Shown: positions 10,185 through 49,900 of the stretch, one piece after another
Layout of the letters: each line of letters opens with the position of its first letter
How positions within the stretch are numbered: the first letter of the stretch is position 1
Source: a virus
Lineage: Duplodnaviria > Heunggongvirae > Uroviricota > Caudoviricetes
Strand: one strand, 5' to 3'
Length of the DNA stretch: 64,000 nt
IMG/VR virus record: IMGVR_UViG_2687453424_000001
Notes under the pieces: generated by a model
Database searches by the model: none
The model's input: the letters and a program-made list of their open reading frames with translations, nothing else
Told to the model about the DNA's origin: nothing
Translations under genes and position numbers: made by a program

Positions 10185-10400
10185 CAAGATTTTGTAGGAT
10201 CATGGAACCATTTATTTTGGAAAAGACACTTTAGAACATTGAGTCCACCATTAACCAAACACTGGCAAGTCAACACATGAACCATGTCCATTAGAGCATG
10301 TCTTTTAAATACCTCCAGGGATGGTGACACAACCACTTCTGCAGGCAGCGTTTTTCTTGTCCCATCATCAGACAGGACAGGCAGGCCAGGACAGGCTGGG
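10185..10400 (-). mobile_element. CR1 LINE 3'-terminal fragment
   Basis: Minus-strand ORF ends with CR1 ORF2 C-terminal-like peptide (..PSLEVFKRHALMDMV.., GLNVLKCLFQ); DNA matches the common avian CR1 3'-end pattern; paralogous to 55455-55660. Confidence 0.7.
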
Positions 10401-10499
10401 ATCTCCTTTACCCCGGCTGAAGGAAGGGATTCAGCCCGGTCAGCTGACCCATCTCATCCTGGGATTGCAGCCCTGGGGCTGGAAGGGGATTCAGCTCCG

Positions 10500-10660
10500 T
10501 CCCATAAACACCAGAAACCCACAGGAGCTCTCACTTCCTCAGAAGGTGAAAATGTACCATTATGTAGATGATGTCTTAATCAGAGATTCCCCCACAAAGG
10601 CAGGGGAAGCAGCAACAGCAGTGTGGGAAGCACTACAGGATGTCAAAGTTCCACCTGAGC
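10500..10660 (+). mobile_element. possible retroviral RT fragment (YVDD motif)
   Basis: Plus-strand translation ..LPQKVKMYHYVDDVLIRDSPTKAGEAATAVWEALQDV.. contains a YxDD polymerase motif; short, no flanking RT motifs recognised. Confidence 0.3.
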
Positions 10661-11061
10661 AACGTCAGAAGCCAAGTAGAAACCAGCAGATCAATGCTCC
10701 CACCCAACTTGGTGTTGGCCGCAAATTTACACATCCCAGTATGGAGCAGTGTGGACCAGCTTGCACCAGTACAGACCAACATAGGCCACTATGGCCCCAG
10801 ATACTGCTGGGGTTTTAATATCCCAGTGCTCCCAGTCCCTGCTGCAGGTCTTCCCACTTGCAGCTGTGCTCAACTCCCAATCCCTTCCAGTGCTCCCACT
10901 ACCTGCTGCAGGTGCTCCCAGTCCTTCCCAGTCCCTCCCAGTGCTCCCAGTCCTTGCCACAGGTGCTCCTGCTCATCCCCCACCAGACCTCCTTGGTCTT
11001 TTTCAGAAGGACACCCCAAATTAGGCAACCCCCACTCTGGGGCTGGCCCTGCCGACTCCCT
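10660..11061 (-). mobile_element. CR1-like LINE fragment, divergent subfamily, runs into gap
   Basis: DNA parallels the CR1 ORF2 region seen at 56930-57275 (..cagcagatcaatg.tcccacc...gcaaatttacacatcccagtatggagcag..); cccagtgctcccagtcc direct sub-repeats. Confidence 0.55.
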
Positions 11062-16629: not shown

Positions 16630-16975
16630 GCAGCTGCCCCACGGGGAAACTGGGGGGAGTCACCCGGGAGGCCCAGATCCCTCGTCGGGGCAGGCTGGGT
16701 ATTGGACGGTGAGTGGTGAGCAATTGTATTCTCTCCCCTTGTTCTTCCCCTCACCATTATTGTTACTGGCGGTAGCAGCAGTGGGTTTCAGTTATCCCTT
16801 AGTTACTGGACTGCTCTTATCTCAACCCATGGCAGTTACATTCTTTCCATTCTCCTCCCCTTCCCTCTGGAGCTCGGGGGGCGGTGGGGATGGAGGTCAG
16901 AGGGAGGTGGGGGGAGAGGAAGGAGAGTGAGCGAGCGGCTGCGTGGTTCTCAGTTACCGGCTGGGCTAAACCATG
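16630..16975 (+). repeat. LTR-like interspersed repeat, partial copy (same family as 62075-62595)
   Basis: Aligns by eye to the 3' half of 62075-62595 (..gtattctc..cattatt..ctggcggtagcagcagtg..cttatctcaaccc..). Confidence 0.6.
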
Positions 16976-17950
16976 ACACTCCCCAGACCCACAAATACCC
17001 CCCAAGTGACCCCCATCGAGCCACATCTGCCTGCCAAGTGACCCCCCAGAGACCCCCAGACACACAACTGCCCCCCATGTGACCCCAAATTGACTCCGCA
17101 GACCAACCACTGCGACCCAAGTGACCCTGAAGTGACCCCCCAGACCCACAACTATCTCCAAAGTGACCCCCAAGGGACCACCCATACCTACAACTGCCCC
17201 CAAATGACCACCAAGCAACCACCTAGACCCCCAACTGTCCCCAAATTGACCCCCACGTGACCCCCATCGAGCCACAGCTGTCCCCCAAGTGACCCCAAAT
17301 TGACTCCCCAGACCCACAACTGCCTCACAAGTGACCCCAAGTGACCACCCAGTCCCACAACTGTCCCCCAAGTGACCCCAAATTGACTCCCCAGACCCAC
17401 AACTGCCCCACAAGTTACCCCAAGTAAGCACCCAGACCCACAAGTGCCCTGCATGTGACCCTCCAGACCCACAAATGCCCCCCCAAGTGACTCCAAATTG
17501 ACTCCATAGACCAAAAACTGCCTCTCAAGTGACCCCCCAGTGACTTCCAGAACCACAACTGCCCCCAAGTGTCCCTAAAGATATCCCCATAGAGCCAAAA
17601 ACTGCCCCCCAAGTGACCCCAAATTGACTCCCCAGACCCACATCTCCCGCCAAGTGACCACCCAGGCAAACAACTGCCCCCCCAAGTGACTCCCCAGACT
17701 CAAAACTGCCTCCCAAGTGACACCCTAGACCCACAACTGCCTCCTAAGTGACCCCTGAGTAAACCCGCAGATCCACAACTGTCATTCAAGTGGCCCCCAG
17801 GTGTCCACCCAGACGCACAACAAACCCAAGTGACCCCCAAGTGGCACGTCAGACCTACACCTCCACCTCCAGTGACCTCCCAGTCACCCCCAAACCCACT
17901 CCTGCCCCTCAAATGACTCCCCAGACCCACAACTGCCCCCCAGGTTGGGG
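16975..17950. repeat. tandem minisatellite, ~31-bp unit (caagtgaccccccagacccacaactgccccc) with frequent 11-bp insert (caaattgactc) giving 42-bp units
   Basis: More than 20 degenerate tandem units read directly; same satellite recurs at 63840-64000. Confidence 0.85.
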
Positions 17951-26728: not shown

Positions 26729-26924
26729 GGCAGTGCAAGTGTAAGCAGTGGTCAAATGGGAAAGGACTTTTAGTGGCTCTGGACTAAGCTAGAAAGAGCT
26801 GAGAACTTCCAACTGTATAAATACTCTTCCCATTTTCAGTCATCCGTAGAATACTTTATACGCCAAAGGAAAAATGTCAGCAGTGTTCTACTGGTAAATA
26901 AATAACACAGGCAAAATGATTTTT

Positions 26925-27480
26925 GATGAGAAAATGAACATGAGCCGGCTGTGCAGTCGCTTGGGGTATTGTGTGCAGTTCTGGTGTCCTCAACATAAAA
27001 AGGACATGGAACTGTTGGAGCAAGTCCAGAGGAGGGCCACAAGGATGATCAGGGGACTGGAGCACCTCCCATATGAAGACAGGCTGAGGAAGTTGGGGCT
27101 GTTCAGCCTGGAGAAGAGAAGGCTGCGTGGAGACCTCAGAGCAGCCTTCCAGTATCTGAAGGGGGCCTTAAGTATGCTGGAGAGGGGCTCTTCACTAGGG
27201 ACTGTAGTGATAGGACAAGGGGTAACATGCTCAAACATAAACAGGGGAAGTTTATATTGGATCTAAGGAAGAAGTTCTTGACTGTAAGGGTGGTGAGGCA
27301 CTGGAAGAGGTTGCCCAGGGAAGCTGTGAATGCTCCATTCCTGGCGGTGTTCAAGGCCGTTTTGGATAGAGCCTTGGGTGACATGGTTTAGTGGGAGGTG
27401 TCCCTGCCCATAGCAGGGGGGTTGGAACTAGATGATCTTAAGGTCCTTTCCAACCCTAACTATTCTATGATTCTACAATT
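26925..27480 (+). mobile_element. CR1 LINE 3' fragment (ORF2 C-terminus and 3' end)
   Basis: Plus-strand translation ..[56 protein letters not shown]..; ends with ..ggttggaactagatgatcttaaggtcctttccaaccctaactattctatgattc. Confidence 0.85.
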
Positions 27481-27539
27481 CTAAGGCCATGCCGAGCCTC
27501 TCTTGTGCACCTCAGACTCATCTGAGTCATAAGTACAAG

Positions 27540-28083
27540 TAGTGAACTTTACAATCAAGTTGGATTTTATCTGATATCCCTTGTGATTATCAGAGCTGGA
27601 CAAAGCACTGCTTCAGAGCAAACCTGACTCCCATCCAACCTGGCCTTGAACACTGCCAAGGATGGGGCAGCCACAGCTTCTCTGGGCACTCAGTGCCTGC
27701 ACCTCAGCACCCTCACAGGGAAGTACTTTGTCTTAATATCCAAGATAAATCTTCCTTTTTTCAGCTTAAAGCCATTCCCACTTGTCCTCTCAGTGCACAG
27801 CCTTTTAAAATGCCCCTCTCCAGACTTCCTGTAGGCCCTGTCTAGGTATGAGCAGCTTGCTAAGATGTCTCCTTGGAGCCTTCTCTTCTTCAGGCTTAAA
27901 AACTCCAGCTCTCACAGCTGTCATCATTGGAGATGCACTCCATCCCTTAGCGAATCTCTGTGACTCTTCATAAGCCCATCGTTATAGGACCATGAAACAA
28001 CAGAGGTTGGAAGGGAACCCACAAGGTCTCGAGTCCAACCAATTGGGAACAGGATCAGAGCAGAGTGGCTCAGGGCTTGAAAC
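27540..28083 (-). mobile_element. CR1-like 3' fragments (two pieces, second is a 3'-terminus motif at ~27990-28083)
   Basis: ..catccaacctggccttgaacactgccaaggatggggcagccacagcttctctgggcac..cctcacagggaag.. and ..ggttggaagggaacccacaaggtctcgagtccaacc..gtggctcagggc.. Confidence 0.6.
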
Positions 28084-28084
28084 A

Positions 28085-28294
28085 GTCTGAGTTGGAAATC
28101 TGATGAAAGATCGATTGGCAATCCGGGCAATCATCACGGTAAAAAAACAGAACTTTATCAGAATGATTAGCGAGCGTCACGACCGGTCGCTGTTTTTCCA
28201 CGTGATTCACGTATTGATGACTAGCAAAACCACTAACAGCTAAAACCACCACGATTACCGCTAGGACTTTGCTAACCCGTTTAATTAAGGTCAC
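28085..28294 (-). CDS. membrane-anchored thioredoxin-like (CxxC) protein, 3'-truncated at the bacterial/host junction; GTG start
   Basis: MTLIKRVSKVLAVIVVVLAVSGF (TM anchor) ...VLFFYRDDCPDCQSIF (CPDC active-site motif); start overlaps the upstream gene by 14 nt; ORF ends inside CR1-like host sequence. Confidence 0.6.
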
Positions 28295-28898
28295 TGGCTT
28301 TAAAGCTACTACCTAAATTTTGTACCGCGGTGATTCGATTCGTGGTGGTATCGAAGGTCACCTGGTAAAGCACCGTCGCCTTTTGCCAGTCGTTATCGCC
28401 ACTCTTGCTTTGGTAACTAACAACCGCCAAGCCTTTCATGTTTCGCCCCTGCTTACTTTGTGTATACATATTCAGTTGGTTTAACTTGGCTGAAACACTA
28501 TTGCTATCGCCATAAGTCCCTTTATTGGAAAAGTATTGCTGATATAACTTGTCGGAAATCAAGTTTTTAACGCCATCTTTACGCTGACCGTAGGTCTTGG
28601 GCTTAAAGTTATTCATGACATCAAAGAACTTGGTGACCACCGTATTAAAGCTAAGTTCAGCCGGACTTTTGTCTTTATTATTTTGGTAGGTCTTATAACT
28701 GTCAATTTGGGTGCTCAATAACTGCTTTTGTTGGTTGGTTTTAGTCAATTGCTGACTAACTTGTCGCTTCTGTTGTTGTAAGCGCGTGATCTGCTGATGC
28801 GCCTGTTTAACTTGGCTATGTTGATAGGCATTCGCCCCTAATGACAGAACTAAGATCAAGCTACCAATCACAACACTTAAAACCATGCTACGCTTCAT
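28281..28898 (-). CDS. VirB8-like T4SS membrane protein (PrgL/TraM-like topology: N-terminal TM, coiled coil, globular domain)
   Basis: 205-aa ORF MKRSMVLSVVIGSLILVLSLGANA..; Q/K-rich coiled-coil segment; RBS aaggaggg ~7 nt upstream of ATG; family call from topology and operon context only. Confidence 0.5.
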   Translation of the reverse strand: MKRSMVLSVVIGSLILVLSLGANAYQHSQVKQAHQQITRLQQQKRQVSQQLTKTNQQKQLLSTQIDSYKTYQNNKDKSPAELSFNTVVTKFFDVMNNFKPKTYGQRKDGVKNLISDKLYQQYFSNKGTYGDSNSVSAKLNQLNMYTQSKQGRNMKGLAVVSYQSKSGDNDWQKATVLYQVTFDTTTNRITAVQNLGSSFKASDLN

Positions 28899-28912
28899 TT
28901 GTTTGTCCCTCC
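28899..28912 (-). promoter_or_regulatory. Shine-Dalgarno site (AAGGAGGG) for the VirB8-like ORF
   Basis: Minus-strand taaggagggacaaacaaATG; the upstream gene's TAA stop abuts the RBS. Confidence 0.7.
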
Positions 28913-29767
28913 TTACTTCTTGATTGGCCGGGCTAACGTCACATCACCACCACTTAGCAAGCTATAAAAAGCGGTGCCAAAGGTGCTTTCGTTAACCTTG
29001 TCGCCTGTCCCACCTTGCTCAATAATCTTGGTGGCTTTGCCTTGCCATTTGCCTAACAGAATGGCCGTATGGCCGTTGTTTCCCGCGCCGGCGCCTTGAT
29101 TGACAATCACAATATCGCCGGCTTTCGCGTCATTTTCACTGATTTGTTTAAGATATTGATGACTGCCTTTGGCGTCACTGGCCATCGTGCCGGTAAACCA
29201 GCCCATGTTGGCGGGTACCTTGTAACCAGCTTTATTCAGGGCTAACCAGACAAAGCCGGAACAATCCGTGCCACCAGTTTTATTAGGATTTTTTAAATCG
29301 CTACCTAGATCAGGACTGGGGTGCGTTTGCACATAGTAGAAGTCCCCCTTCATGCTTTCCGCGTTTTTGACGATACTACCGCCGGAATAACTCGGGTCAC
29401 TATCACAACCTAGCTCGGTCAGATCGCCGGAACTCGCGTTGTCTAAGGTATTGCCCGCTACTGGATCACTGGCACCAAACACGGAATACCAGTGATCGGC
29501 ATAACCGTATCTTTGGCTTAAATACCATTGCTCCGGGTTTTTGCTCATGCCCTCAAAATCCATCAACCAGTCTTTGGTCGCTTTGTGCACGTCCGTGTAT
29601 TTGAATATCTTCTTATTTGACGCATAGTAACTACTGTTCAATTCTTGGTCGAGATAATCTAATTGCACCCCGAGATTTGTGGCTGGTTTGTTTTCTTTGT
29701 GAGCTAAGTCTTCCAGTTTATCTTTTCGGCCACCTAACCACTGGGCTAATCCCGTGGCACCGGAACT
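28913..29767 (-). CDS. CHAP-domain peptidoglycan hydrolase (T4SS-associated cell-wall hydrolase), C-terminal 285 aa; 5' part in gap
   Basis: ..GGTDCSGFVWLALNKAGY.. (catalytic Cys) and ..NGHTAILLG.. (His) CHAP signature; stop TAA at 28913-28915. Confidence 0.8.
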   Translation of the reverse strand, partial: SSGATGLAQWLGGRKDKLEDLAHKENKPATNLGVQLDYLDQELNSSYYASNKKIFKYTDVHKATKDWLMDFEGMSKNPEQWYLSQRYGYADHWYSVFGASDPVAGNTLDNASSGDLTELGCDSDPSYSGGSIVKNAESMKGDFYYVQTHPSPDLGSDLKNPNKTGGTDCSGFVWLALNKAGYKVPANMGWFTGTMASDAKGSHQYLKQISENDAKAGDIVIVNQGAGAGNNGHTAILLGKWQGKATKIIEQGGTGDKVNESTFGTAFYSLLSGGDVTLARPIKK

Positions 29768-32700
29768 NNNNNNNNNNNNNNNNNNNNNNNNNNNNNNNNN
29801 NNNNNNNNNNNNNNNNNNNNNNNNNNNNNNNNNNNNNNNNNNNNNNNNNNNNNNNNNNNNNNNNNNNNNNNNNNNNNNNNNNNNNNNNNNNNNNNNNNNN
29901 NNNNNNNNNNNNNNNNNNNNNNNNNNNNNNNNNNNNNNNNNNNNNNNNNNNNNNNNNNNNNNNNNNNNNNNNNNNNNNNNNNNNNNNNNNNNNNNNNNNN
30001 NNNNNNNNNNNNNNNNNNNNNNNNNNNNNNNNNNNNNNNNNNNNNNNNNNNNNNNNNNNNNNNNNNNNNNNNNNNNNNNNNNNNNNNNNNNNNNNNNNNN
30101 NNNNNNNNNNNNNNNNNNNNNNNNNNNNNNNNNNNNNNNNNNNNNNNNNNNNNNNNNNNNNNNNNNNNNNNNNNNNNNNNNNNNNNNNNNNNNNNNNNNN
30201 NNNNNNNNNNNNNNNNNNNNNNNNNNNNNNNNNNNNNNNNNNNNNNNNNNNNNNNNNNNNNNNNNNNNNNNNNNNNNNNNNNNNNNNNNNNNNNNNNNNN
30301 NNNNNNNNNNNNNNNNNNNNNNNNNNNNNNNNNNNNNNNNNNNNNNNNNNNNNNNNNNNNNNNNNNNNNNNNNNNNNNNNNNNNNNNNNNNNNNNNNNNN
30401 NNNNNNNNNNNNNNNNNNNNNNNNNNNNNNNNNNNNNNNNNNNNNNNNNNNNNNNNNNNNNNNNNNNNNNNNNNNNNNNNNNNNNNNNNNNNNNNNNNNN
30501 NNNNNNNNNNNNNNNNNNNNNNNNNNNNNNNNNNNNNNNNNNNNNNNNNNNNNNNNNNNNNNNNNNNNNNNNNNNNNNNNNNNNNNNNNNNNNNNNNNNN
30601 NNNNNNNNNNNNNNNNNNNNNNNNNNNNNNNNNNNNNNNNNNNNNNNNNNNNNNNNNNNNNNNNNNNNNNNNNNNNNNNNNNNNNNNNNNNNNNNNNNNN
30701 NNNNNNNNNNNNNNNNNNNNNNNNNNNNNNNNNNNNNNNNNNNNNNNNNNNNNNNNNNNNNNNNNNNNNNNNNNNNNNNNNNNNNNNNNNNNNNNNNNNN
30801 NNNNNNNNNNNNNNNNNNNNNNNNNNNNNNNNNNNNNNNNNNNNNNNNNNNNNNNNNNNNNNNNNNNNNNNNNNNNNNNNNNNNNNNNNNNNNNNNNNNN
30901 NNNNNNNNNNNNNNNNNNNNNNNNNNNNNNNNNNNNNNNNNNNNNNNNNNNNNNNNNNNNNNNNNNNNNNNNNNNNNNNNNNNNNNNNNNNNNNNNNNNN
31001 NNNNNNNNNNNNNNNNNNNNNNNNNNNNNNNNNNNNNNNNNNNNNNNNNNNNNNNNNNNNNNNNNNNNNNNNNNNNNNNNNNNNNNNNNNNNNNNNNNNN
31101 NNNNNNNNNNNNNNNNNNNNNNNNNNNNNNNNNNNNNNNNNNNNNNNNNNNNNNNNNNNNNNNNNNNNNNNNNNNNNNNNNNNNNNNNNNNNNNNNNNNN
31201 NNNNNNNNNNNNNNNNNNNNNNNNNNNNNNNNNNNNNNNNNNNNNNNNNNNNNNNNNNNNNNNNNNNNNNNNNNNNNNNNNNNNNNNNNNNNNNNNNNNN
31301 NNNNNNNNNNNNNNNNNNNNNNNNNNNNNNNNNNNNNNNNNNNNNNNNNNNNNNNNNNNNNNNNNNNNNNNNNNNNNNNNNNNNNNNNNNNNNNNNNNNN
31401 NNNNNNNNNNNNNNNNNNNNNNNNNNNNNNNNNNNNNNNNNNNNNNNNNNNNNNNNNNNNNNNNNNNNNNNNNNNNNNNNNNNNNNNNNNNNNNNNNNNN
31501 NNNNNNNNNNNNNNNNNNNNNNNNNNNNNNNNNNNNNNNNNNNNNNNNNNNNNNNNNNNNNNNNNNNNNNNNNNNNNNNNNNNNNNNNNNNNNNNNNNNN
31601 NNNNNNNNNNNNNNNNNNNNNNNNNNNNNNNNNNNNNNNNNNNNNNNNNNNNNNNNNNNNNNNNNNNNNNNNNNNNNNNNNNNNNNNNNNNNNNNNNNNN
31701 NNNNNNNNNNNNNNNNNNNNNNNNNNNNNNNNNNNNNNNNNNNNNNNNNNNNNNNNNNNNNNNNNNNNNNNNNNNNNNNNNNNNNNNNNNNNNNNNNNNN
31801 NNNNNNNNNNNNNNNNNNNNNNNNNNNNNNNNNNNNNNNNNNNNNNNNNNNNNNNNNNNNNNNNNNNNNNNNNNNNNNNNNNNNNNNNNNNNNNNNNNNN
31901 NNNNNNNNNNNNNNNNNNNNNNNNNNNNNNNNNNNNNNNNNNNNNNNNNNNNNNNNNNNNNNNNNNNNNNNNNNNNNNNNNNNNNNNNNNNNNNNNNNNN
32001 NNNNNNNNNNNNNNNNNNNNNNNNNNNNNNNNNNNNNNNNNNNNNNNNNNNNNNNNNNNNNNNNNNNNNNNNNNNNNNNNNNNNNNNNNNNNNNNNNNNN
32101 NNNNNNNNNNNNNNNNNNNNNNNNNNNNNNNNNNNNNNNNNNNNNNNNNNNNNNNNNNNNNNNNNNNNNNNNNNNNNNNNNNNNNNNNNNNNNNNNNNNN
32201 NNNNNNNNNNNNNNNNNNNNNNNNNNNNNNNNNNNNNNNNNNNNNNNNNNNNNNNNNNNNNNNNNNNNNNNNNNNNNNNNNNNNNNNNNNNNNNNNNNNN
32301 NNNNNNNNNNNNNNNNNNNNNNNNNNNNNNNNNNNNNNNNNNNNNNNNNNNNNNNNNNNNNNNNNNNNNNNNNNNNNNNNNNNNNNNNNNNNNNNNNNNN
32401 NNNNNNNNNNNNNNNNNNNNNNNNNNNNNNNNNNNNNNNNNNNNNNNNNNNNNNNNNNNNNNNNNNNNNNNNNNNNNNNNNNNNNNNNNNNNNNNNNNNN
32501 NNNNNNNNNNNNNNNNNNNNNNNNNNNNNNNNNNNNNNNNNNNNNNNNNNNNNNNNNNNNNNNNNNNNNNNNNNNNNNNNNNNNNNNNNNNNNNNNNNNN
32601 NNNNNNNNNNNNNNNNNNNNNNNNNNNNNNNNNNNNNNNNNNNNNNNNNNNNNNNNNNNNNNNNNNNNNNNNNNNNNNNNNNNNNNNNNNNNNNNNNNNN

Positions 32701-35083
32701 NNNNNNNNNNNNNNNNNNNNNNNNNNNNNNNNNNNNNNNNNNNNNNNNNNNNNNNNNNNNNNNNNNNNNNNNNNNNNNNNNNNNNNNNNNNNNNNNNNNN
32801 NNNNNNNNNNNNNNNNNNNNNNNNNNNNNNNNNNNNNNNNNNNNNNNNNNNNNNNNNNNNNNNNNNNNNNNNNNNNNNNNNNNNNNNNNNNNNNNNNNNN
32901 NNNNNNNNNNNNNNNNNNNNNNNNNNNNNNNNNNNNNNNNNNNNNNNNNNNNNNNNNNNNNNNNNNNNNNNNNNNNNNNNNNNNNNNNNNNNNNNNNNNN
33001 NNNNNNNNNNNNNNNNNNNNNNNNNNNNNNNNNNNNNNNNNNNNNNNNNNNNNNNNNNNNNNNNNNNNNNNNNNNNNNNNNNNNNNNNNNNNNNNNNNNN
33101 NNNNNNNNNNNNNNNNNNNNNNNNNNNNNNNNNNNNNNNNNNNNNNNNNNNNNNNNNNNNNNNNNNNNNNNNNNNNNNNNNNNNNNNNNNNNNNNNNNNN
33201 NNNNNNNNNNNNNNNNNNNNNNNNNNNNNNNNNNNNNNNNNNNNNNNNNNNNNNNNNNNNNNNNNNNNNNNNNNNNNNNNNNNNNNNNNNNNNNNNNNNN
33301 NNNNNNNNNNNNNNNNNNNNNNNNNNNNNNNNNNNNNNNNNNNNNNNNNNNNNNNNNNNNNNNNNNNNNNNNNNNNNNNNNNNNNNNNNNNNNNNNNNNN
33401 NNNNNNNNNNNNNNNNNNNNNNNNNNNNNNNNNNNNNNNNNNNNNNNNNNNNNNNNNNNNNNNNNNNNNNNNNNNNNNNNNNNNNNNNNNNNNNNNNNNN
33501 NNNNNNNNNNNNNNNNNNNNNNNNNNNNNNNNNNNNNNNNNNNNNNNNNNNNNNNNNNNNNNNNNNNNNNNNNNNNNNNNNNNNNNNNNNNNNNNNNNNN
33601 NNNNNNNNNNNNNNNNNNNNNNNNNNNNNNNNNNNNNNNNNNNNNNNNNNNNNNNNNNNNNNNNNNNNNNNNNNNNNNNNNNNNNNNNNNNNNNNNNNNN
33701 NNNNNNNNNNNNNNNNNNNNNNNNNNNNNNNNNNNNNNNNNNNNNNNNNNNNNNNNNNNNNNNNNNNNNNNNNNNNNNNNNNNNNNNNNNNNNNNNNNNN
33801 NNNNNNNNNNNNNNNNNNNNNNNNNNNNNNNNNNNNNNNNNNNNNNNNNNNNNNNNNNNNNNNNNNNNNNNNNNNNNNNNNNNNNNNNNNNNNNNNNNNN
33901 NNNNNNNNNNNNNNNNNNNNNNNNNNNNNNNNNNNNNNNNNNNNNNNNNNNNNNNNNNNNNNNNNNNNNNNNNNNNNNNNNNNNNNNNNNNNNNNNNNNN
34001 NNNNNNNNNNNNNNNNNNNNNNNNNNNNNNNNNNNNNNNNNNNNNNNNNNNNNNNNNNNNNNNNNNNNNNNNNNNNNNNNNNNNNNNNNNNNNNNNNNNN
34101 NNNNNNNNNNNNNNNNNNNNNNNNNNNNNNNNNNNNNNNNNNNNNNNNNNNNNNNNNNNNNNNNNNNNNNNNNNNNNNNNNNNNNNNNNNNNNNNNNNNN
34201 NNNNNNNNNNNNNNNNNNNNNNNNNNNNNNNNNNNNNNNNNNNNNNNNNNNNNNNNNNNNNNNNNNNNNNNNNNNNNNNNNNNNNNNNNNNNNNNNNNNN
34301 NNNNNNNNNNNNNNNNNNNNNNNNNNNNNNNNNNNNNNNNNNNNNNNNNNNNNNNNNNNNNNNNNNNNNNNNNNNNNNNNNNNNNNNNNNNNNNNNNNNN
34401 NNNNNNNNNNNNNNNNNNNNNNNNNNNNNNNNNNNNNNNNNNNNNNNNNNNNNNNNNNNNNNNNNNNNNNNNNNNNNNNNNNNNNNNNNNNNNNNNNNNN
34501 NNNNNNNNNNNNNNNNNNNNNNNNNNNNNNNNNNNNNNNNNNNNNNNNNNNNNNNNNNNNNNNNNNNNNNNNNNNNNNNNNNNNNNNNNNNNNNNNNNNN
34601 NNNNNNNNNNNNNNNNNNNNNNNNNNNNNNNNNNNNNNNNNNNNNNNNNNNNNNNNNNNNNNNNNNNNNNNNNNNNNNNNNNNNNNNNNNNNNNNNNNNN
34701 NNNNNNNNNNNNNNNNNNNNNNNNNNNNNNNNNNNNNNNNNNNNNNNNNNNNNNNNNNNNNNNNNNNNNNNNNNNNNNNNNNNNNNNNNNNNNNNNNNNN
34801 NNNNNNNNNNNNNNNNNNNNNNNNNNNNNNNNNNNNNNNNNNNNNNNNNNNNNNNNNNNNNNNNNNNNNNNNNNNNNNNNNNNNNNNNNNNNNNNNNNNN
34901 NNNNNNNNNNNNNNNNNNNNNNNNNNNNNNNNNNNNNNNNNNNNNNNNNNNNNNNNNNNNNNNNNNNNNNNNNNNNNNNNNNNNNNNNNNNNNNNNNNNN
35001 NNNNNNNNNNNNNNNNNNNNNNNNNNNNNNNNNNNNNNNNNNNNNNNNNNNNNNNNNNNNNNNNNNNNNNNNNNNNNNNNNNN
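29768..35083. other. assembly gap (N run) inside the bacterial block
   Basis: continuous n. Confidence 1.
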
Positions 35084-35311
35084 CTTTAGTGACTTGACCT
35101 TATCTGGCAAGGTATAAGTTAAAACAACCTTCTGGTCTTGCTCAACAACATTAACTAACTGCAAGAAATTGGGATCAGCTTGCTTTAATTCGTTTAGCTC
35201 ACTTAATTGGTCGTAGCGAAATTGATTGTGATTGAGTTCGAGGATTAGCTTGTTCCCTTGTCGTTTGAACGTGCCAACCTCAATATTCAATAGCTGGTTT
35301 GCTTTACTCAT
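35084..35311 (-). CDS. hypothetical protein, N-terminal 76 aa; may be the N-terminus of the CHAP hydrolase or a separate gene
   Basis: ATG at 35311-35309 overlaps the VirB4-like stop (35304-35306) by 8 nt; strong RBS gaaggaggg upstream; MSKANQLLNIEVGTFKRQGNKLILELNHNQ.. Confidence 0.5.
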
Positions 35312-37168
35312 TTAAAGTCCCTCCTTCTTCTTCGGTGGTGGTCAAGGCGTCAATTTCACTCGGTGTCAGGATCACACGCTTTTGATAATCCGGTTGTCCG
35401 GCGGTCTCACGGTTGTATTTTTCTTGGTAAGCTTCTGGGTCGATTAACCGCAATTCTTCTTCGGTTAGCTCCACCCGCATAAAAGCGCGTTGGCTACCAT
35501 AGATCATCAGGGCTTCACCTTGTCTACGGCGTTCTAGTAACTTCTTTTCCTTATCCGAGAACGTCATTCTTAACTTAGTAATGACATCATCAACACCTTT
35601 ACCATCAAGGCCAAAGAATACCTTGGTATAGGAGTTCCCAATAATGGCTTCACCAATGTTCTGCCCAGTATCTGTCGTTCCTTCAATCACATCTTGAATT
35701 TGTTGCGTTCCGGCAATCGCCCCGGCATTGTACTTTCTAAAGCGCTTATAGGCTTGATGGAAAAAGGTAGCGGCCGCTTTATGCAAGGTCAGAAAATGAA
35801 ATTCGTCAACAAACAATTTCTTGCGGCTATGCCGATCTTTCGTGATTTCGTCCCACAAATATTGAAAAGTATTCAGGTAGGCTGCTGATTGGACTTCCTG
35901 TTCACTTTGCAGCGGTTTTAAATCAAAGGAAATGATCTTGCCCTTTAAGTTGACGTTGGTGTGTCCGTCAAATAGGCTGTTAGAACCATGGGTATAACTG
36001 CCTAAGATGTAGTAGAAGTCTTTAACCCGACTGAATTTGTCAGCGTCCTTATCAGCTAGTTTTTCCAACTCGTCATAGACATTGGATAAGGTCGGCCACT
36101 GATCGTCTTTAATCTCTTTTAAGCGGCTATATTTCAAAACGCCACTGTTGACATAAGCCTGTTTAACAACATCATCAAGGATTGCCAATTCAACTTGGGT
36201 AATCCCGGTTTTGAGGACTTCAAAGAATCCCTTTAGTCGTTGAATTTTATCTTTGACTAGTAAATCAAGGTTTGTGACCGCTTCATCAGCGCTTAGGATT
36301 TCTTCGGAAAAGATTTGTAGCGGGTTAATTTTGTACTTCGCATTGGAAGTTAAATGCAAGACTGCCCCACCCAAGGCTTCAACAATCTTGGTATATTCAT
36401 TTTCTGGATCAATAATGTAGAGTTGATAGTCTTGAATGGCATAGCGTAGGATTTTTTGGATCATATAGGTGGTCTTGCCGACCCCACTGGTACCAATAAC
36501 CACCATGTTTTGGTTCAACGTTTTGTTGCGATCCAACATATCCACGGCAATTAAGCTGTTGGTGTCTTTGTTAACCCCTTCAATATCGCTTCTAGGCTTT
36601 AAGTCCAAAATCTCGGCGTCATCAAAAGGAAACATGCTGCTGGCAACTTCGGTATTACTTTCCTTATACGTATAATCGCCTAATAGATTTTCGTTGATTG
36701 GCATAGTAGACCAAAAACTTTGAAAAGTTGCTTTAACGGGCACTAAGGGCTTCATTTGTAGCTTAATCAGTGTATTTTTAACGTTGTCAGTTAAATCGTC
36801 TAGTTCCGCTAAACTGTTAGCCCGCAGATAAACCAGCATATGTTGGTACACAAATGTGGTAGAATTATCGAGGTATTTATCTAGTTGCATATTGGCCGAA
36901 TCAATATAATTTTGCAGAATTTTCTTTTTATACGGGTCGAACGTATTTAGCTTCTGCGCTTCCTTATTTTGGATCGTCTTTTTGTAATAGGTAATCATTG
37001 AATTGTTACTGGCGCTGTCGATATATTGCACAATATCGATAACGCCTTTTTTGCGCTTTAATTCTGATAGCCAGTTGCCGTGAACTCGCTTGGGATAGTC
37101 AGCAATCGCTAACACCCGGATAAAGTTCTCCCCCGACTGCACGTAGGTGGGGTACTGTTCCCAACTGC
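35304..37168 (-). CDS. VirB4-like conjugative T4SS ATPase (TraE/PrgJ/TcpF family), C-terminal ~620 aa; 5' end truncated at the bacterial/host junction
   Basis: Walker A NMVVIGTSGVGKTTYMIQKI; Walker B KKLFVDEFHFL; C-terminal AGAIAGTQQIQDV; the first ~66 codons of ORF-track ORF 35304-37364 are read-through into GC-rich host DNA. Confidence 0.85.
35312..35325 (-). promoter_or_regulatory. Shine-Dalgarno site (GAAGGAGGG) inside the 3' end of the VirB4-like gene
   Basis: Minus-strand gaagaaggagggacttta-ATG. Confidence 0.65.
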
Positions 37169-38159
37169 AGGTAGTCTCATGTCCCTTTGATGGCTGGAAC
37201 CCCAAGAGGTGTAGCATGGAGACAAGAAAGATGAGGAGGGTGGATGCCCCCTGCATGAAGGGGAAACTTGGATTTCTGGAGGTCCTCTGTGTGACAGGGA
37301 ACAGGTGGGGTTGGCTTTTGTGACTGAGGATCAGAGGAGTGGATAAGAGGGACATTGTGCTCACAGTTACAAACTACTTGCTCAGGGAGGGGAAACAGAA
37401 AAGGTCTTTTGTCAGCACCTGAGGAAGCCTCCAGGCTAATGAGCAGGTACCTTGCAGGTAATTGCCCTGGTGGTCCCTGGCCATGCAAAGCAACAGGGTG
37501 CAACAATGTGGAGGGTCTTGGCACAACCGGTTAACACAGGTGCAGGGCGGGCCAACAAGGGTGATGCTCCCCTGGAAAAGCTGCTCAGGATGTGATCATC
37601 AGTGTCAGCCTTGGCTGTCATGAGCATGCAATAGTGGGGACTCAGATGCTAAAGGGCATGAGGAAGGCCAGCAGCAGAGAACAGACTCTGGACTTACTTG
37701 GGGACAATTCCAGGAGTTTCCATGGGAAGCGGCTCTGATGGTGAAGGAGCATGAGCAAGTCTGCTAACGATCCCTGAGCCTGGAATACCTGGAGGGCTTC
37801 CAAGGTCCACCAGGGCTTTTGCCACCTTTCTGAATGCCGGTCAGGCTCCTGAGGGCTTTAGCACAGTTGCAGAGCACCAGCGCATTCTGGAATGGCCGGT
37901 GTTATTCCTCAGCCTTGCCAGAGCCTGCTGAGGCCTCTGCCTCCATCTAGAATGCTTGGGGAGATTCTGCAGGATTGGTGCAGACTGCCAGGGCCCTGCC
38001 ATGTTCTGCAATGTTGGGTGTCCTTCCAAGCGTGCTGGTGCAAGCACTTCCCTGGGCATTGCTGGAACCCTCCAGTTTCCCAGCAGGGCCTTCGCCGCCT
38101 TCCAGTAGCCTCGATGTGCTGCCGCGGTGCTGTGGTTTAAGTCCAGTCAGTAATTCAGA

Positions 38160-38290
38160 ACCACGTAGTCGCTCGCTCACTCTCCCCCCTTCCTCCCCCC
38201 CACTCCCAGAGGGATGGGAAGGAGAATCGAAAAAATATAACTCGCACAGGTTGAGATAAGAACAGTCAAGTAACTAAGGAATAGCACAAA
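38160..38290 (-). repeat. LTR-like repeat, partial copy, interrupted by CR1
   Basis: ..gtggtttaagtccagtcag..ctcccccttcctccccc..cccagagggatgggaaggagaatcgaaa..ggttgagataagaacag..taactaagg.. matches 63290-63440. Confidence 0.6.
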
Positions 38291-41200
38291 CCACAGCCGC
38301 TACCACCAGTAATAATAGTAGAATCATAGAATCGTAGAATCATAGAATAGTTAGGATGGGAAAGGACCTTAAGACCNNNNNNNNNNNNNNNNNNNNNNNN
38401 NNNNNNNNNNNNNNNNNNNNNNNNNNNNNNNNNNNNNNNNNNNNNNNNNNNNNNNNNNNNNNNNNNNNNNNNNNNNNNNNNNNNNNNNNNNNNNNNNNNN
38501 NNNNNNNNNNNNNNNNNNNNNNNNNNNNNNNNNNNNNNNNNNNNNNNNNNNNNNNNNNNNNNNNNNNNNNNNNNNNNNNNNNNNNNNNNNNNNNNNNNNN
38601 NNNNNNNNNNNNNNNNNNNNNNNNNNNNNNNNNNNNNNNNNNNNNNNNNNNNNNNNNNNNNNNNNNNNNNNNNNNNNNNNNNNNNNNNNNNNNNNNNNNN
38701 NNNNNNNNNNNNNNNNNNNNNNNNNNNNNNNNNNNNNNNNNNNNNNNNNNNNNNNNNNNNNNNNNNNNNNNNNNNNNNNNNNNNNNNNNNNNNNNNNNNN
38801 NNNNNNNNNNNNNNNNNNNNNNNNNNNNNNNNNNNNNNNNNNNNNNNNNNNNNNNNNNNNNNNNNNNNNNNNNNNNNNNNNNNNNNNNNNNNNNNNNNNN
38901 NNNNNNNNNNNNNNNNNNNNNNNNNNNNNNNNNNNNNNNNNNNNNNNNNNNNNNNNNNNNNNNNNNNNNNNNNNNNNNNNNNNNNNNNNNNNNNNNNNNN
39001 NNNNNNNNNNNNNNNNNNNNNNNNNNNNNNNNNNNNNNNNNNNNNNNNNNNNNNNNNNNNNNNNNNNNNNNNNNNNNNNNNNNNNNNNNNNNNNNNNNNN
39101 NNNNNNNNNNNNNNNNNNNNNNNNNNNNNNNNNNNNNNNNNNNNNNNNNNNNNNNNNNNNNNNNNNNNNNNNNNNNNNNNNNNNNNNNNNNNNNNNNNNN
39201 NNNNNNNNNNNNNNNNNNNNNNNNNNNNNNNNNNNNNNNNNNNNNNNNNNNNNNNNNNNNNNNNNNNNNNNNNNNNNNNNNNNNNNNNNNNNNNNNNNNN
39301 NNNNNNNNNNNNNNNNNNNNNNNNNNNNNNNNNNNNNNNNNNNNNNNNNNNNNNNNNNNNNNNNNNNNNNNNNNNNNNNNNNNNNNNNNNNNNNNNNNNN
39401 NNNNNNNNNNNNNNNNNNNNNNNNNNNNNNNNNNNNNNNNNNNNNNNNNNNNNNNNNNNNNNNNNNNNNNNNNNNNNNNNNNNNNNNNNNNNNNNNNNNN
39501 NNNNNNNNNNNNNNNNNNNNNNNNNNNNNNNNNNNNNNNNNNNNNNNNNNNNNNNNNNNNNNNNNNNNNNNNNNNNNNNNNNNNNNNNNNNNNNNNNNNN
39601 NNNNNNNNNNNNNNNNNNNNNNNNNNNNNNNNNNNNNNNNNNNNNNNNNNNNNNNNNNNNNNNNNNNNNNNNNNNNNNNNNNNNNNNNNNNNNNNNNNNN
39701 NNNNNNNNNNNNNNNNNNNNNNNNNNNNNNNNNNNNNNNNNNNNNNNNNNNNNNNNNNNNNNNNNNNNNNNNNNNNNNNNNNNNNNNNNNNNNNNNNNNN
39801 NNNNNNNNNNNNNNNNNNNNNNNNNNNNNNNNNNNNNNNNNNNNNNNNNNNNNNNNNNNNNNNNNNNNNNNNNNNNNNNNNNNNNNNNNNNNNNNNNNNN
39901 NNNNNNNNNNNNNNNNNNNNNNNNNNNNNNNNNNNNNNNNNNNNNNNNNNNNNNNNNNNNNNNNNNNNNNNNNNNNNNNNNNNNNNNNNNNNNNNNNNNN
40001 NNNNGTCCTCGTGGCCCTCCTCTGGACTTGTTCCAACAGTTCCATGTCCTTTTTATGTTGAGGACACCAGAACTGCACACAATACCCAAGTGAGGTCTCA
40101 CGAGAGCAGAGTAGTGGGGCAGGATCACCTCCTTCGACCTGCTGCTCACGCTCATTTTGATGCAGCCCAGGATACGGTTGCTTTCTGGGCTGCGAGCACA
40201 CACTGCAGCTGGCTCATGTTCATTTTTCATCGACCAACACCCCCAAGTCTTTCTCCACAGGGCTGCTCTGGATCTCTGCTATCCCCAACCTGTAGCTGTG
40301 CCTGGGATTGCTCCGACCCAGGTGTAGGACCTTGCACTTGGCATGGTTAAACTTCATCAGGTTGGCATCAGCCCACCTCACAAGCGTGTCGAGGTCCCTC
40401 TGCATGGCATCCCTTCCCTCCGGCGTATCAACCGAACCACACAGCTTGGTGTCATCGGCAAACTTGCTGAGGGCGCACTCAATCCCACTGTCCATGTCAG
40501 CGACAAAGATGTTGAACAAGACCGATCCCAACACTGATCCCTGAGGAACACCACTTGTTACCGGTCTCCAGCTGGACATCGAGCCATTGACCACAACTCC
40601 TTGCGTGCGGCCATCCAGCCAGATCTTTATCCACCGAGTGGTCCACCCATCAAATTGATGTCTCTCCAATTAGAGACAAGGATGTCATGTCGGACAGTGT
40701 CGAACGCTTTGCACAAGTCCAGGTAGATGACCTCAGCTGCTCTACCCCTATCCATCAGTTCCATAGCCCCATCATAGAAGGCCACCAAATTGATCAGGCA
40801 GGATTTCCCCTTTGTGAAGCCATGCTGGCTGTCACCAACCACCTCCTTGTTTTTCATGTGCCTTAGCATGCCTTGCAGGAGAATCTGCTCCAAGAGTTTG
40901 CCAGGCACAGAGGTGAGACTGACTGCTCTGTAATTCCCCTGATCATCCATTTTCCCCTTCTTGAAAACAGGGGCTATATTTCCCTTTTCCCAGTCATCGG
41001 GAGCTTCACCTGACTGCCATGATCTTTCAAATATGATGGACTGTGTAAACTTCATTTGCCAGCTCCTTCAGGACCCGTAGATGGATTTCATTAGGTCCCA
41101 TGGACATGTGCACGTTCAGGTTCTTAAGATGGTCTTGAACCAGATCCTGTCTTACAGTGGGCCCAAGGTCTTCATTCTCACAGTCCCTGCTTCTGCCTTC

Positions 41201-41515
41201 CAAGACTTGGGTGATGTGGTCAGAGCCTTTGCCAGTGAAGACTGAGGCAAAGAAGTAATTCAGAACCTCAGCCTTCTCCAAATCCAGGGTAGCCAGTTCT
41301 CCTGCTAGTTTCTGGAGGGGGCCTATGTTGTCCCTAGTCTGTCTTTTATTTGCTACATACCTATAGAATCCCTTCCTGTTATCTTTCACATCCCTAGCCA
41401 AGTTTAATTCTAACTGGGCCTTAGCTTTCCTAACCTGGTCCATAGCTTCTCAGACAACATCCCTGTATTCTTCCCAGGCTGCCTTCCACCATCCCCTAAA
41501 GTTCAAATGCTTTTT
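38290..41515 (-). mobile_element. CR1 LINE, long copy with reverse-transcriptase ORF2 (3' end at ~38290; internal gap; 5' part runs into gap)
   Basis: Minus ORFs: ..[13 protein letters not shown].. (RT FADD motif), ..[18 protein letters not shown].., ..[10 protein letters not shown].., ..[19 protein letters not shown]..; octamer repeats gaatcatagaatcgtagaat at 38290-38340. Confidence 0.9.
38377..40004. other. assembly gap (N run) inside CR1
   Basis: continuous n. Confidence 1.
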
Positions 41516-48790: not shown

Positions 48791-49189
48791 AATACAGCTG
48801 AACAATGGACATGTGAGCAATCCCAGCTGTTTGGTTTTAGCCAAACTCTGACTTAAGTTGCAAGGTCTGAATTCAAGTTACTCAGGCTGTGAGGCCTAGC
48901 CTTAGGTTACTAAAGGACAGTTACGTGCAGTAGAATAAGGAACTTGGCATTTGCTCAAGGCTAACAAGATGTGGGAGCGGGATGGTGAAACTGCAAGTTA
49001 TGTGAGAAAGGTAGCGAATGGATAATTTTAGCTAGCTTGTTATCTGCTTCAAAATGTGTGGACTGCACTTCTGAGCCAATCACAATCTATATTGGTTACG
49101 TCTAGCCAATAGCAGTTCAATTTCTGGAAGCATATACTGTAGCTACTGTAGCTACTGTGCTACGACAGTGGTCTGTGGACCCCATTGGC

Positions 49190-49900
49190 CATTGAGACTA
49201 CGATGGAATGTGCGCAAGTCCTTTTTCAGGCTTTGTCTGAGCGAGCTGCTGAAATTTGCCCAAATCACTGTAATAGTCATTCGCACATCCCTGGACTCCT
49301 GACTGAAGGTAGCAATAGTGCAGACCGTGTTGCACAAGGTCTGCCAGTTCCTGACTGTTGTGCTCCAGTTTTTATGCGCTATTTACATGTCACGGTTGAT
49401 ACCTGTAGCAGTGTCATTTTGGCTACAGCACAACGCAAGCAAGACGCCAAAGCAGCCATTTTGCATTGGCGCGAGGTCATGGCGATTTTGGGAGTCCCTA
49501 GCCAGATCAAGACCGACAATGGTCCAGCATATTCAAGTCAACTGGTGGCTTCATTTTTATGACAGTGGGGCATTGAGCATAAGACCGGTTGTCCTTATAA
49601 CAGCACTGGCCCAGCTATCGTCGAACGCGCGCACCGGACTCTGAAAGCTCGCCTCGTGTGTCTTGAGGCGGGGGAGACCGTACCCGGAAGAGCTCCCGCA
49701 GTCCGTGTGCGCTGACTTTTACTTTCTGCTCTGACTCGTTTAAATCAATTCTCGCATGGATCAAGTGAACAATCCCCGATGAGCTCGCACTTTGCCTCAC
49801 CTCTAGACAAACCCTCGTATCCACAGGTACGGGTGAAAGATCTGGAAAAGGGCAAGATAGGTCCATTTGCCCTACGTGCTCACGGGTGAGGCTATGCCTG
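49190..49900 (+). pseudogene. pol: ERV pol integrase fragment (zinc-finger remnant, catalytic core, C-terminal region), frameshifted
   Basis: ..ICPNHCNS.., ..YLHVTVDTCSSVILATAQ.., ..ILGVPSQIKTDNGPAYSS.., frameshift, [30 protein letters not shown]; aligns motif-for-motif with ALV integrase from memory. Confidence 0.85.

What the first reader, a model, noticed from the sequence alone, without database searches (positions are those of the whole stretch)
28060..28110. Left junction: bacterial thioredoxin-like ORF is cut off inside a CR1 3'-terminus
The host sequence just left of the block is a CR1 3'-end motif (ggttggaagggaacc...gtccaacc...gtggctcagggc). The thioredoxin-like ORF ends only 17 codons after its CPDC motif, which is too short for a thioredoxin fold, and its last codons appear to be read-through into host DNA. 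An abrupt breakpoint that truncates a gene is typical of a chimeric contig join, or of a real insertion breakpoint.
Basis: partly seen in the sequence, partly recalled or inferred. Interest (0 to 1): 0.6.

Follow-up and report, generated by a model that had tools for sequence, protein, structure and literature searches.

The report
Contaminant chimera in E. coli assembly
The abrupt break is really in the sequence, but it joins two contaminants (bird DNA and a piece of a lactic-acid-bacterium plasmid) inside a 2010-era 454 draft genome deposited as laboratory E. coli MC1061, so it is almost certainly a library or assembly artefact and not gene transfer into an animal.

Summary
At window 28095|28096, bird DNA (a decayed, antisense CR1 3' end) switches within one base to DNA 97.5% identical to conjugative Lactobacillaceae plasmids. 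The switch cuts a 122-codon thioredoxin-family gene after codon 66. The 74-codon ORF ends with 8 read-through codons in bird DNA. A mirror junction at 37167|37168 removes about 52 N-terminal codons of a VirB4-like ATPase gene.

The context changes the reading. The window is positions ~3.051-3.115 Mb of LN877770.1 (GCA_001405275.1), deposited as E. coli MC1061(phi24B). That genome is a Newbler assembly of a 454 8-kb mate-pair library. Nothing in the window matches any complete E. coli genome, 60% of it is N, and the non-plasmid contigs are avian (OR14 receptor, CR1, ERV fragments). So the "host" is itself a contaminant.

The plasmid block is undecayed: no indels or stops in 3,756 bp, and 75 synonymous against 6 non-synonymous differences in VirB4. 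No sequence overlap explains either join, so a chimeric molecule or read is the likeliest cause.

Verdict: artefact (about 0.9). A genuine insertion in a bird genome is not formally excluded (about 0.03). Interest is low, apart from database hygiene.

The parts
27975..28095 (-). Decayed avian CR1 3'-terminal region, antisense on the + strand: degenerate octamer tail at ~27983-28003, hairpin arms GGTTGGA...TCCAACC at 28004-28040. It is cut at 28095.
   Evidence: Alignment A1 with five other copies in the window. CR1 3' structure as described in PMC8665684. The hairpin is recovered in the minimum-free-energy fold, but the overall fold is not better than shuffles.
28095..28096 (.). Left junction: last bird base 28095, first plasmid base 28096. 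No linker, no filler and no extended homology.
   Evidence: Base-by-base alignment with the plasmid. Top 15 plasmid hits start at 28096 or 28104. No 454 linker in the window.
28070..28294 (-). Chimeric 74-codon ORF: codons 1-66 of a 122-codon plasmid thioredoxin-family gene (CPDC at 56-59), plus 8 read-through codons and a stop in bird DNA.
   Evidence: 65/66 identity, then divergence; the full-length protein hits PF00085; the truncated ORF has no Pfam hit; this exact product is not on record anywhere.
28096..29767 (-). Left piece of the Lactobacillaceae conjugative-plasmid block (1,672 bp). It is 97.5% identical to L. brevis pLBN-3 with no indels.
28281..28898 (-). Intact 205-aa hypothetical protein of the conjugation cluster. 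It is in NCBI nr as CUQ97497.1, 'BN1843_28280 [Escherichia coli]'.
   Evidence: The other named members of its 90%-identity cluster (1,949 members, 40 read) are from Lactobacillaceae.
28913..29767 (-). C-terminal 284 codons of the cell-wall hydrolase (Phage_lysozyme2 + NlpC/P60/CHAP). It runs into the N gap.
   Evidence: PF18013, PF00877; 27 synonymous and 3 non-synonymous codon differences, no stops.
29768..35083 (.). Scaffold gap of 5,316 N inside the plasmid block. The flanking pieces are 1,491-1,494 bp apart in the 8 plasmids checked.
   Evidence: Coordinates.
35084..37167 (-). Right piece of the plasmid block (2,084 bp). It is 95.0% identical to an L. plantarum plasmid (NZ_CP044235.1) with no indels. 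It holds the first 76 codons of a 'conjugal transfer protein' gene (35084-35311) and the VirB4-like gene.
35304..37364 (-). VirB4/TraE-like ATPase ORF. Plasmid-derived up to 37167, having lost about 52 N-terminal codons of the 664-codon gene. The apparent N-terminus (37168-37364) is read-through from bird DNA.
   Evidence: P-loop_TraG, DUF87, CagE_TrbE_VirB; differences 16/4/71 by codon position, 75 synonymous and 6 non-synonymous; called as a 683-aa gene in the public record.
37167..37168 (.). Right junction: last unambiguous plasmid base 37167. The join happens to create CTGCAG at 37165-37170.
37168..38376 (.). Right bird flank. Unique-looking to about 38120, then an LTR-like repeat (38128-38317), then an antisense CR1 3' end (38327-38376) at the contig end. 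It does not continue the CR1 copy cut at the left junction.

Best explanation
The junction is an artefact and exists in no organism.

The window is part of a pseudo-chromosome deposited as E. coli MC1061(phi24B). That genome is a Newbler assembly of one 454 Titanium 8-kb mate-pair library, and its 15 scaffolds are handled in a single coordinate system. This stretch is a scaffold built entirely from contaminating reads: avian DNA rich in multi-copy elements, plus about 3.8 kb of a conjugative Lactobacillaceae plasmid.

At 28095|28096 and again at 37167|37168, bird and plasmid sequence are joined end to end with no shared sequence. Newbler needs real overlaps, so the joins must rest on one or a few physically chimeric molecules or reads. 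The likeliest source (inferred) is blunt fragment-to-fragment ligation during library construction from a bird-derived sample that also carried lactobacilli. That material then leaked into the MC1061 read set.

The truncated thioredoxin-like ORF and the bird-encoded 'N-terminus' of VirB4 are by-products of ORF-calling across these joins.

Shown: provenance, foreignness of both sides, exact breakpoints, lack of overlap, and the undecayed state of the plasmid DNA. Inferred: the step at which the chimera formed.
For: Provenance:
- The exact 205-aa protein occurs on only one public contig, LN877770.1 of GCA_001405275.1 (5,027,063 bp), and is named as an E. coli protein.
- Locus L003 from that record is an exact reverse-complement substring of the window.
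- LN877770.1 is cited as MC1061 (PMC10203433).
- The MC1061(phi24B) genome was made from a 454 8-kb mate-pair library with Newbler, 5,027,118 bp in 15 scaffolds (PMC4651098).

Foreignness:
- The window outside the plasmid-bearing contigs (26729-38376) has no match to 5,426 complete E. coli genomes.
- The plasmid block matches 172-201 Lactobacillaceae-type conjugative plasmids.
- The other contigs carry an OR14 olfactory-receptor fragment whose 120 listed best hits are all avian, CR1 reverse transcriptase, and retroviral integrase.
- 60% of the window is N.

Freshness of the plasmid DNA:
- 0 indels and 0 internal stops over 3,756 bp.
- VirB4 differences fall 16/4/71 by codon position, with 75 synonymous and 6 non-synonymous codon changes. 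The divergence from database plasmids therefore arose under selection in bacteria.

Breakpoints:
- They are abrupt, they cut two genes at arbitrary internal positions, and the plasmid continues normally beyond both in every reference.
- No similarity exists between bird and plasmid sequence across either join.
- The right flank does not continue the CR1 copy interrupted on the left.
Against: - Both junctions lie inside contigs, not at N gaps.
- Both partners of the plasmid block are bird DNA, and the two chimeric contigs sit next to each other, colinear, in one scaffold. That is also what a real insertion would look like.
- Random ligation chimeras made in an E. coli-dominated library should mostly join the plasmid to E. 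coli. The artefact therefore has to be placed in a separate bird-derived library, which is an extra assumption.
- No linker or adaptor remnant marks the joins (the linker sequences were recalled from memory).
- No reads were available, so clipping and coverage were not examined.
- How bird DNA reached assembly depth in an E. coli project is not fully explained.
Confidence: 0.9

Rival explanations
1. Genuine integration. A 5-9 kb fragment of a Lactobacillaceae conjugative plasmid is integrated, by non-homologous end joining, into the genome of the bird whose DNA contaminates this assembly. This could be germline, somatic or in a cell line. The contig reports a true insertion breakpoint inside a CR1 element.
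For: - Both ends of the block abut bird DNA within contigs, in one scaffold, and the two plasmid pieces are colinear and in the same orientation.
- The joins are clean, with no linker or vector.
- The partners are bird DNA and not the far more abundant E. coli DNA.
Against: - The plasmid DNA shows no decay at all and has a purifying-selection substitution pattern, so any integration would have to be extremely recent.
- The flanks are not demonstrably contiguous: the right flank does not continue the interrupted CR1.
- No target-site duplication is visible.
- The only record carrying it is a contaminated E. coli draft.
- Neither bird flank was found elsewhere.
- I know of no precedent for Lactobacillaceae-to-bird transfer, whereas contamination-derived false HGT is common (my own knowledge).
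Confidence: 0.03
2. Purely computational misjoin. Newbler merged bird and plasmid reads through a false overlap or a contig-graph error, with no chimeric read present in the data.
For: - The assembly is an old R&D Newbler build on a single mate-pair library.
- Contigs in this scaffold often end at repeat boundaries, for example 38376 and 40005 inside CR1.
Against: - Newbler joins reads by overlaps of tens of bases (my own knowledge).
- The plasmid sequence beyond the breakpoint and the bird sequence show only random identity.
- Comparison with other CR1 copies suggests at most a few bases of possible microhomology.
- There is nothing for a false overlap to use.
Confidence: 0.05
3. The ORF is a natural short thioredoxin-like gene that really ends here, and the downstream sequence belongs to the same bacterial replicon.
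For: None beyond the existence of an open frame with a stop codon.
Against: - In the closest plasmid the gene is 122 codons and is followed by conjugation genes.
- Homology to the top 15 plasmids stops within 8 bp of the same point.
- The downstream sequence is an avian CR1 copy.
Confidence: 0.01

Closest known systems
Cross-species contamination in deposited bacterial genomes, for example animal DNA in a Neisseria gonorrhoeae assembly (Merchant, Wood and Salzberg 2014) and the large-scale GenBank survey by Steinegger and Salzberg 2020. Both recalled from my own knowledge and not checked here.
   Same: - A record named for one bacterium carries vertebrate and other-bacterial DNA.
- Foreign ORFs are annotated and propagated into protein databases under the wrong organism (CUQ97497.1).
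   Different: Two different contaminants are fused to each other within contigs, and the contaminant scaffold is embedded in the middle of a single 'chromosome' record instead of being a separate small contig.
Contamination mistaken for bacterium-to-animal horizontal gene transfer, such as the tardigrade Hypsibius dujardini dispute of 2015-2016 (my own knowledge).
   Same: Undecayed bacterial genes sit next to animal sequence in a draft assembly, and the junctions are supported only by the assembly.
   Different: The record is not even an animal genome, so no HGT claim was made. The junction was read as a 'host' insertion only because the window was seen out of context.
Conjugation (type IV secretion) gene cluster of Gram-positive plasmids of the pIP501/pSK41 kind, as carried by Lactobacillaceae plasmids such as pLBN-3 (NZ_CP050544.1).
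   Same: - Same genes in the same order: VirB4-like ATPase, 'conjugal transfer protein', lysozyme/NlpC-P60 hydrolase, 205-aa protein, thioredoxin-family protein.
- 91-97.5% DNA identity among the best 15 plasmid hits for each piece.
   Different: - Only a 5.25-kb segment is represented, of which 3.76 kb is sequenced.
- Both end genes are truncated.
- Relaxase, coupling protein and replicon are absent from the window.
Avian CR1 (chicken repeat 1) non-LTR retrotransposon, 3' end.
   Same: Inverted-repeat hairpin next to an octamer microsatellite, and sequence similarity to other copies in the window.
   Different: The copy at the junction is old and decayed, with a degenerate microsatellite. It is cut about 110 bp from its 3' end by the join.

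Membership tests
Library or assembly chimera between contaminants | The two sides of the junction come from unrelated organisms | tested here: met
   Left of 28096 is an avian CR1 copy. Right of it is a Lactobacillaceae conjugative plasmid at 97.5% identity.
Library or assembly chimera between contaminants | Neither side belongs to the organism the record is deposited for | tested here: met
   The record is E. coli MC1061(phi24B). The window outside the plasmid-bearing contigs has no E. coli match.
Library or assembly chimera between contaminants | Abrupt breakpoint at an arbitrary position, with the donor sequence continuing normally in its native context | tested here: met
   The plasmid thioredoxin gene continues for 56 codons and the VirB4 gene for about 52 codons beyond the breakpoints.
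Library or assembly chimera between contaminants | Weak or clipped read support and a coverage step at the join | not testable with these tools
Genuine bacterium-to-animal DNA insertion | The two animal flanks are adjacent in the uninserted allele or a related genome | tested here: inconclusive
   The right flank does not continue the CR1 copy cut on the left, but that copy could simply end there. No bird genome was available, and the metagenome scans for both flanks found nothing.
Genuine bacterium-to-animal DNA insertion | The junction is reproducible in independent data from the animal | tested here: not met
   The chimeric ORF is on record nowhere. The intact neighbouring ORF occurs only on this one contig.
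Genuine bacterium-to-animal DNA insertion | Signs of residence in the animal genome: neutral decay, frameshifts, stops | tested here: not met
   0 indels and 0 stops in 3,756 bp, with 75 synonymous and 6 non-synonymous differences in VirB4. A very recent insertion would look the same.
Avian CR1 3' end | Hairpin-forming inverted repeat immediately upstream of the 3' microsatellite | tested here: met
   GGTTGGA...TCCAACC at 28004-28040, aligned with five other copies and paired in the minimum-free-energy fold. Structure as described in PMC8665684.
Avian CR1 3' end | (ATTCTRTG)n microsatellite at the terminus | tested here: inconclusive
   It is clear in the neighbouring copy (ATTCTATGATTCTACA at 27462-27477). 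At the junction copy only a degenerate trace remains at about 27983-28003.
Thioredoxin family protein | CxxC active-site motif | tested here: met
   CPDC at residues 56-59.
Thioredoxin family protein | Complete thioredoxin-fold domain | tested here: not met
   The window ORF keeps only residues 1-66 of 122 and hits no Pfam family. The full-length plasmid protein matches PF00085 over residues 41-113.
Gram-positive conjugative T4SS cluster (pIP501/pSK41 kind) | VirB4-like ATPase and cell-wall hydrolase in conserved order | tested here: met
   Pfam hits. Colinear with annotated conjugative plasmids typed MOBQ/MPF_T.
Gram-positive conjugative T4SS cluster (pIP501/pSK41 kind) | Complete transfer apparatus: relaxase, coupling protein, replicon | tested here: not met
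   Only the 5.25-kb segment is present, and no other plasmid-like DNA is in the window.

The most novel reading that the evidence does not exclude
The contig reports a true, very recent integration of a Lactobacillaceae conjugative-plasmid fragment into a bird's nuclear genome, inside an old CR1 element. It was captured by accident because that bird's DNA contaminated an E. coli sequencing library.
Probability: 0.03. Interest if true: 0.85.

Novelty: not a real feature. Interest (0 to 1): 0.08.

Why it matters
There is no biological significance. The practical value is database hygiene.

- A record used as 'the' MC1061 reference (cited as such in PMC10203433, and used for RNA-seq mapping in PMC4651098) contains at least 64 kb of non-E. 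coli sequence.
- Lactobacillaceae proteins from it, such as CUQ97497.1, sit in NCBI nr labelled Escherichia coli. The public gene index also calls a bird/plasmid fusion ORF (683 aa) on this record.
- Such entries can seed false horizontal-transfer calls, false 'E. coli' pan-genome genes and taxonomic misclassification.
- The case also shows that a window-level scan can mistake a contaminant scaffold for a host genome. Provenance should be checked before a junction is interpreted.

Tried and rejected
- Two metagenome scans, with a 29-mer from the left bird flank and a 25-mer from the right bird flank, looked for an uninterrupted bird locus. Both found nothing.
- A look-up of the chimeric 74-aa ORF in public assemblies found it is not on record.
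- Searches for 454 paired-end linker remnants, with the loxP-type and FLX-type sequences recalled from memory, found none in the window.
- A search of the rest of the window against plasmids, for cloning-vector or further plasmid DNA, found nothing. This gives no support for a BAC/fosmid chimeric-clone reading within the window.
- Restriction-site logic at the joins: the right junction forms CTGCAG and the left has no site. I judged this to be chance.
- Test of whether the right flank continues the interrupted CR1: no similarity.
- LN877770.1 could not be fetched from the annotated collections. A literature search for the GCA number returned nothing. One search term, PRJEB10532, was my own wrong guess and its hits are irrelevant.
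- I considered using the 5,316-N gap against the 1,494 bp expected as evidence of misassembly, and rejected it. Newbler would over-estimate gaps when 8-kb pairs link short contigs, so it is uninformative.
- I ran no further search on naming the bird species. OR14 hits only say 'bird', with at most 89% identity and parrots and gulls on top.

Full report
WHAT IS IN THE SEQUENCE

The window is not continuous sequence. It is nine contig pieces separated by N runs, and 38,720 of its 64,000 bases are N. The finding lies in the 3,039-bp piece at 26729-29767.

Read on the minus strand, that piece and the next one (35084-38376) carry a run of bacterial genes:

- a 74-codon ORF with a CPDC motif (28070..28294)
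- an intact 205-codon ORF (28281..28898)
- the C-terminal 284 codons of a lysozyme/NlpC-P60 hydrolase (28913 to the gap)
- after the gap, the first 76 codons of a 'conjugal transfer protein' gene
- a VirB4-like ATPase ORF (35304..37364)

Megablast against 72,556 plasmids shows that 28096-29767 and 35084-37167 match conjugative plasmids. These are mostly from Lactobacillaceae (Lactiplantibacillus, Latilactobacillus, Levilactobacillus, Pediococcus and others), with a minority from Enterococcus and Leuconostoc. The best matches are 97.5% to L. brevis pLBN-3 for the left piece and 95.0% to an L. plantarum plasmid for the right piece. The two pieces are colinear and in the same orientation.

THE BREAKPOINTS

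Ungapped base-by-base alignment puts the left junction between 28095 and 28096, and the right junction between 37167 and 37168. Outside these points, identity to the plasmid drops at once to random.

In the plasmid, the thioredoxin-family gene is 122 codons (WP_045352986.1) and passes Pfam's Thioredoxin threshold. The window keeps codons 1-66, of which 65 are identical. It then reads 8 codons (SNSDCFKP) and a stop from the other side.

The ORF ends 15 codons after CPDC, not 17, and 7 of those are still plasmid-encoded.

At the right junction, the 664-codon VirB4/DUF87 gene has lost about 52 N-terminal codons. The ORF's apparent start at 37364 lies in non-bacterial DNA.

THE OTHER SIDE OF THE JUNCTION

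Window 27975-28095 aligns with five other copies of one interspersed repeat in the window. The shared features are an octamer-repeat tail and an inverted repeat GGTTGGA...TCCAACC. That is the described 3' structure of avian CR1: a hairpin followed by an ATTCTRTG microsatellite (PMC8665684).

The copy is antisense on the + strand and decayed. The junction cuts it about 110 bp from its 3' end.

Other pieces of the window are also avian:

- an olfactory-receptor fragment (5144-5554) whose 120 listed best hits are all avian OR14-family receptors, at no more than 89% identity
- CR1 reverse-transcriptase fragments (40223-41067)
- a retroviral integrase fragment (49152-49559)

PROVENANCE CHANGES THE QUESTION

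The exact 205-aa protein is on record on one public contig only. That contig is LN877770.1 of GCA_001405275.1, 5,027,063 bp, where it is named 'hypothetical protein BN1843_28280 [Escherichia coli]'. The 20.6-kb locus fetched from that record is an exact reverse-complement substring of the window. This places the window at about 3,051,063-3,115,062 of the record.

LN877770.1 is cited as the genome of E. coli MC1061 (PMC10203433).

The paper that fits it (PMC4651098) describes the MC1061(phi24B) genome as follows:

- 454 GS-FLX Titanium sequencing of one 8-kb mate-pair library
- assembly with an August 2010 R&D build of Newbler
- '5,027,118 bp in 15 scaffolds', annotated with RAST, under BioProject PRJEB9491
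- a single coordinate system, with the prophage at 3,129,539-3,186,979

I infer from the near-identical size and the single coordinate system that the 15 scaffolds were concatenated into the one record.

Outside the plasmid-bearing contigs (26729-38376), the window matches none of 5,426 complete E. coli genomes. Outside the plasmid block, it matches no plasmid or vector. So the bird DNA is not a 'host genome'. It is a contaminant, like the plasmid.

IS THE BACTERIAL DNA FRESH OR RESIDENT?

Across 3,756 aligned bases there are no indels and no internal stops. Differences from the nearest plasmids are concentrated at third codon positions: 71 of 91 in VirB4 and 26 of 30 in the hydrolase. Synonymous changes far outnumber non-synonymous ones, 75 to 6 in VirB4 and 27 to 3 in the hydrolase.

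That divergence arose under purifying selection in bacteria. Nothing indicates time spent as neutral DNA in an animal genome.

HOW THE JOIN WAS PROBABLY MADE

The plasmid sequence beyond each breakpoint and the bird sequence share nothing. Comparison with other CR1 copies suggests at most a few bases of possible microhomology on the left. An overlap assembler such as Newbler therefore had no false overlap to exploit. At least one read must itself contain each junction.

The likeliest origin is a physically chimeric molecule from blunt fragment-to-fragment ligation during library preparation. This step is inferred, not shown.

Both partners are bird DNA and not the dominant E. coli DNA. So the chimeras more plausibly formed in a separate library made from a bird-derived sample that also carried lactobacilli, with that material then leaking into the MC1061 read set.

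This picture also fits the content of the contaminant scaffold. The bird contigs are rich in multi-copy elements, and only plasmid genes of the bacterium appear. Those are the components that would reach assembly depth at low contamination levels. This part is inference, and some unique-looking bird stretches fit it poorly.

No linker remnants were found.

The 5,316-N gap inside the block compares with 1,491-1,494 bp in eight plasmids. It is most simply a gap over-estimate from 8-kb pairs on short contigs, so I treat it as uninformative.

RIVALS

A genuine insertion into a bird genome would also give two in-contig junctions to bird DNA. It cannot be excluded without reads. Several points weigh against it:

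- the undecayed state of the insert
- no sign that the two flanks are contiguous
- absence of the junction from any other data
- the nature of the record

I give it about 0.03.

A purely computational misjoin is unlikely because there is no overlap to use (about 0.05). A naturally short thioredoxin-like gene is refuted.

VERDICT

The feature is an artefact in a contaminated draft assembly. It is of little biological interest, but it is worth reporting as database contamination: Lactobacillaceae proteins from this record are labelled as E. coli in nr, and the public gene index calls a bird/plasmid fusion ORF on it.

Noticed in passing
window 1-64000 (LN877770.1 ~3,051,063-3,115,062): The whole 64-kb window of a record deposited as the E. 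coli MC1061(phi24B) chromosome is non-E. coli. It consists of avian DNA plus a Lactobacillaceae plasmid fragment, and 60% of it is N. It lies about 14.5 kb from the phi24B prophage coordinates given in PMC4651098.
   Followed up: yes
window 28281-28898 (-) and 35304-37364 (-): Mislabelled proteins. The 205-aa Lactobacillaceae plasmid protein is in NCBI nr as CUQ97497.1 '[Escherichia coli]'. The VirB4-like ORF, whose first ~65 codons are read from bird DNA, is called as a 683-aa gene on the public record.
   Followed up: partly
window 29768-35083: The scaffold gap of 5,316 N lies inside the plasmid block, whereas the flanking sequences are 1,491-1,494 bp apart in all eight reference plasmids compared. 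Either Newbler over-estimated the gap, or the source plasmid carries a ~3.8-kb insertion.
   Followed up: partly
window 5144-5554 (-): Fragment of an avian OR14-family olfactory receptor gene (Pfam 7tm_4). The best hits reach 89% identity and are all birds (parrots, gulls and many others). The bird species is not identified.
   Followed up: partly
window 38327-38376 and 40005-41449: One antisense CR1 element appears to span the 1,628-N gap. The contig ends inside the CR1 3' hairpin at 38376, and the next contig starts in the CR1 ORF2 C-terminus (40006-40087 is 97.6% identical to 26964-27045). The reverse-transcriptase ORFs at 40223-41449 lie in three overlapping reading frames. This suggests Newbler broke contigs at repeat boundaries. 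The frameshifts could be decay or 454 homopolymer errors.
   Followed up: no
window 16999-17923 and 63847-63911: A C-rich minisatellite of ~42-bp period with about 22 copies (TRF score 529). A related two-copy array sits near the window end.
   Followed up: no
window 38128-38317; 62407-62594; 63305-63489; 16758-16973: Four copies (71-78% identity) of a second interspersed repeat. It is possibly LTR-like and is distinct from CR1.
   Followed up: no
window 10309-11059, 49152-49559 and 56725-57273: Endogenous-retrovirus-like fragments: an ORF with a YVDD reverse-transcriptase-type motif (10309-10815) and an integrase core (49152-49559, Pfam rve). ORFs at 10580-11059 and 56725-57273 share a near-identical stretch (NIGHYGPRYCWGFNIPVLPVPAAGL), so they belong to a multi-copy element.
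   Followed up: no
window 37165-37170: The right junction creates a PstI site (CTGCAG) that the reference plasmid lacks (it reads CTGAAT). The left junction has no restriction site. This is probably coincidence.
   Followed up: partly
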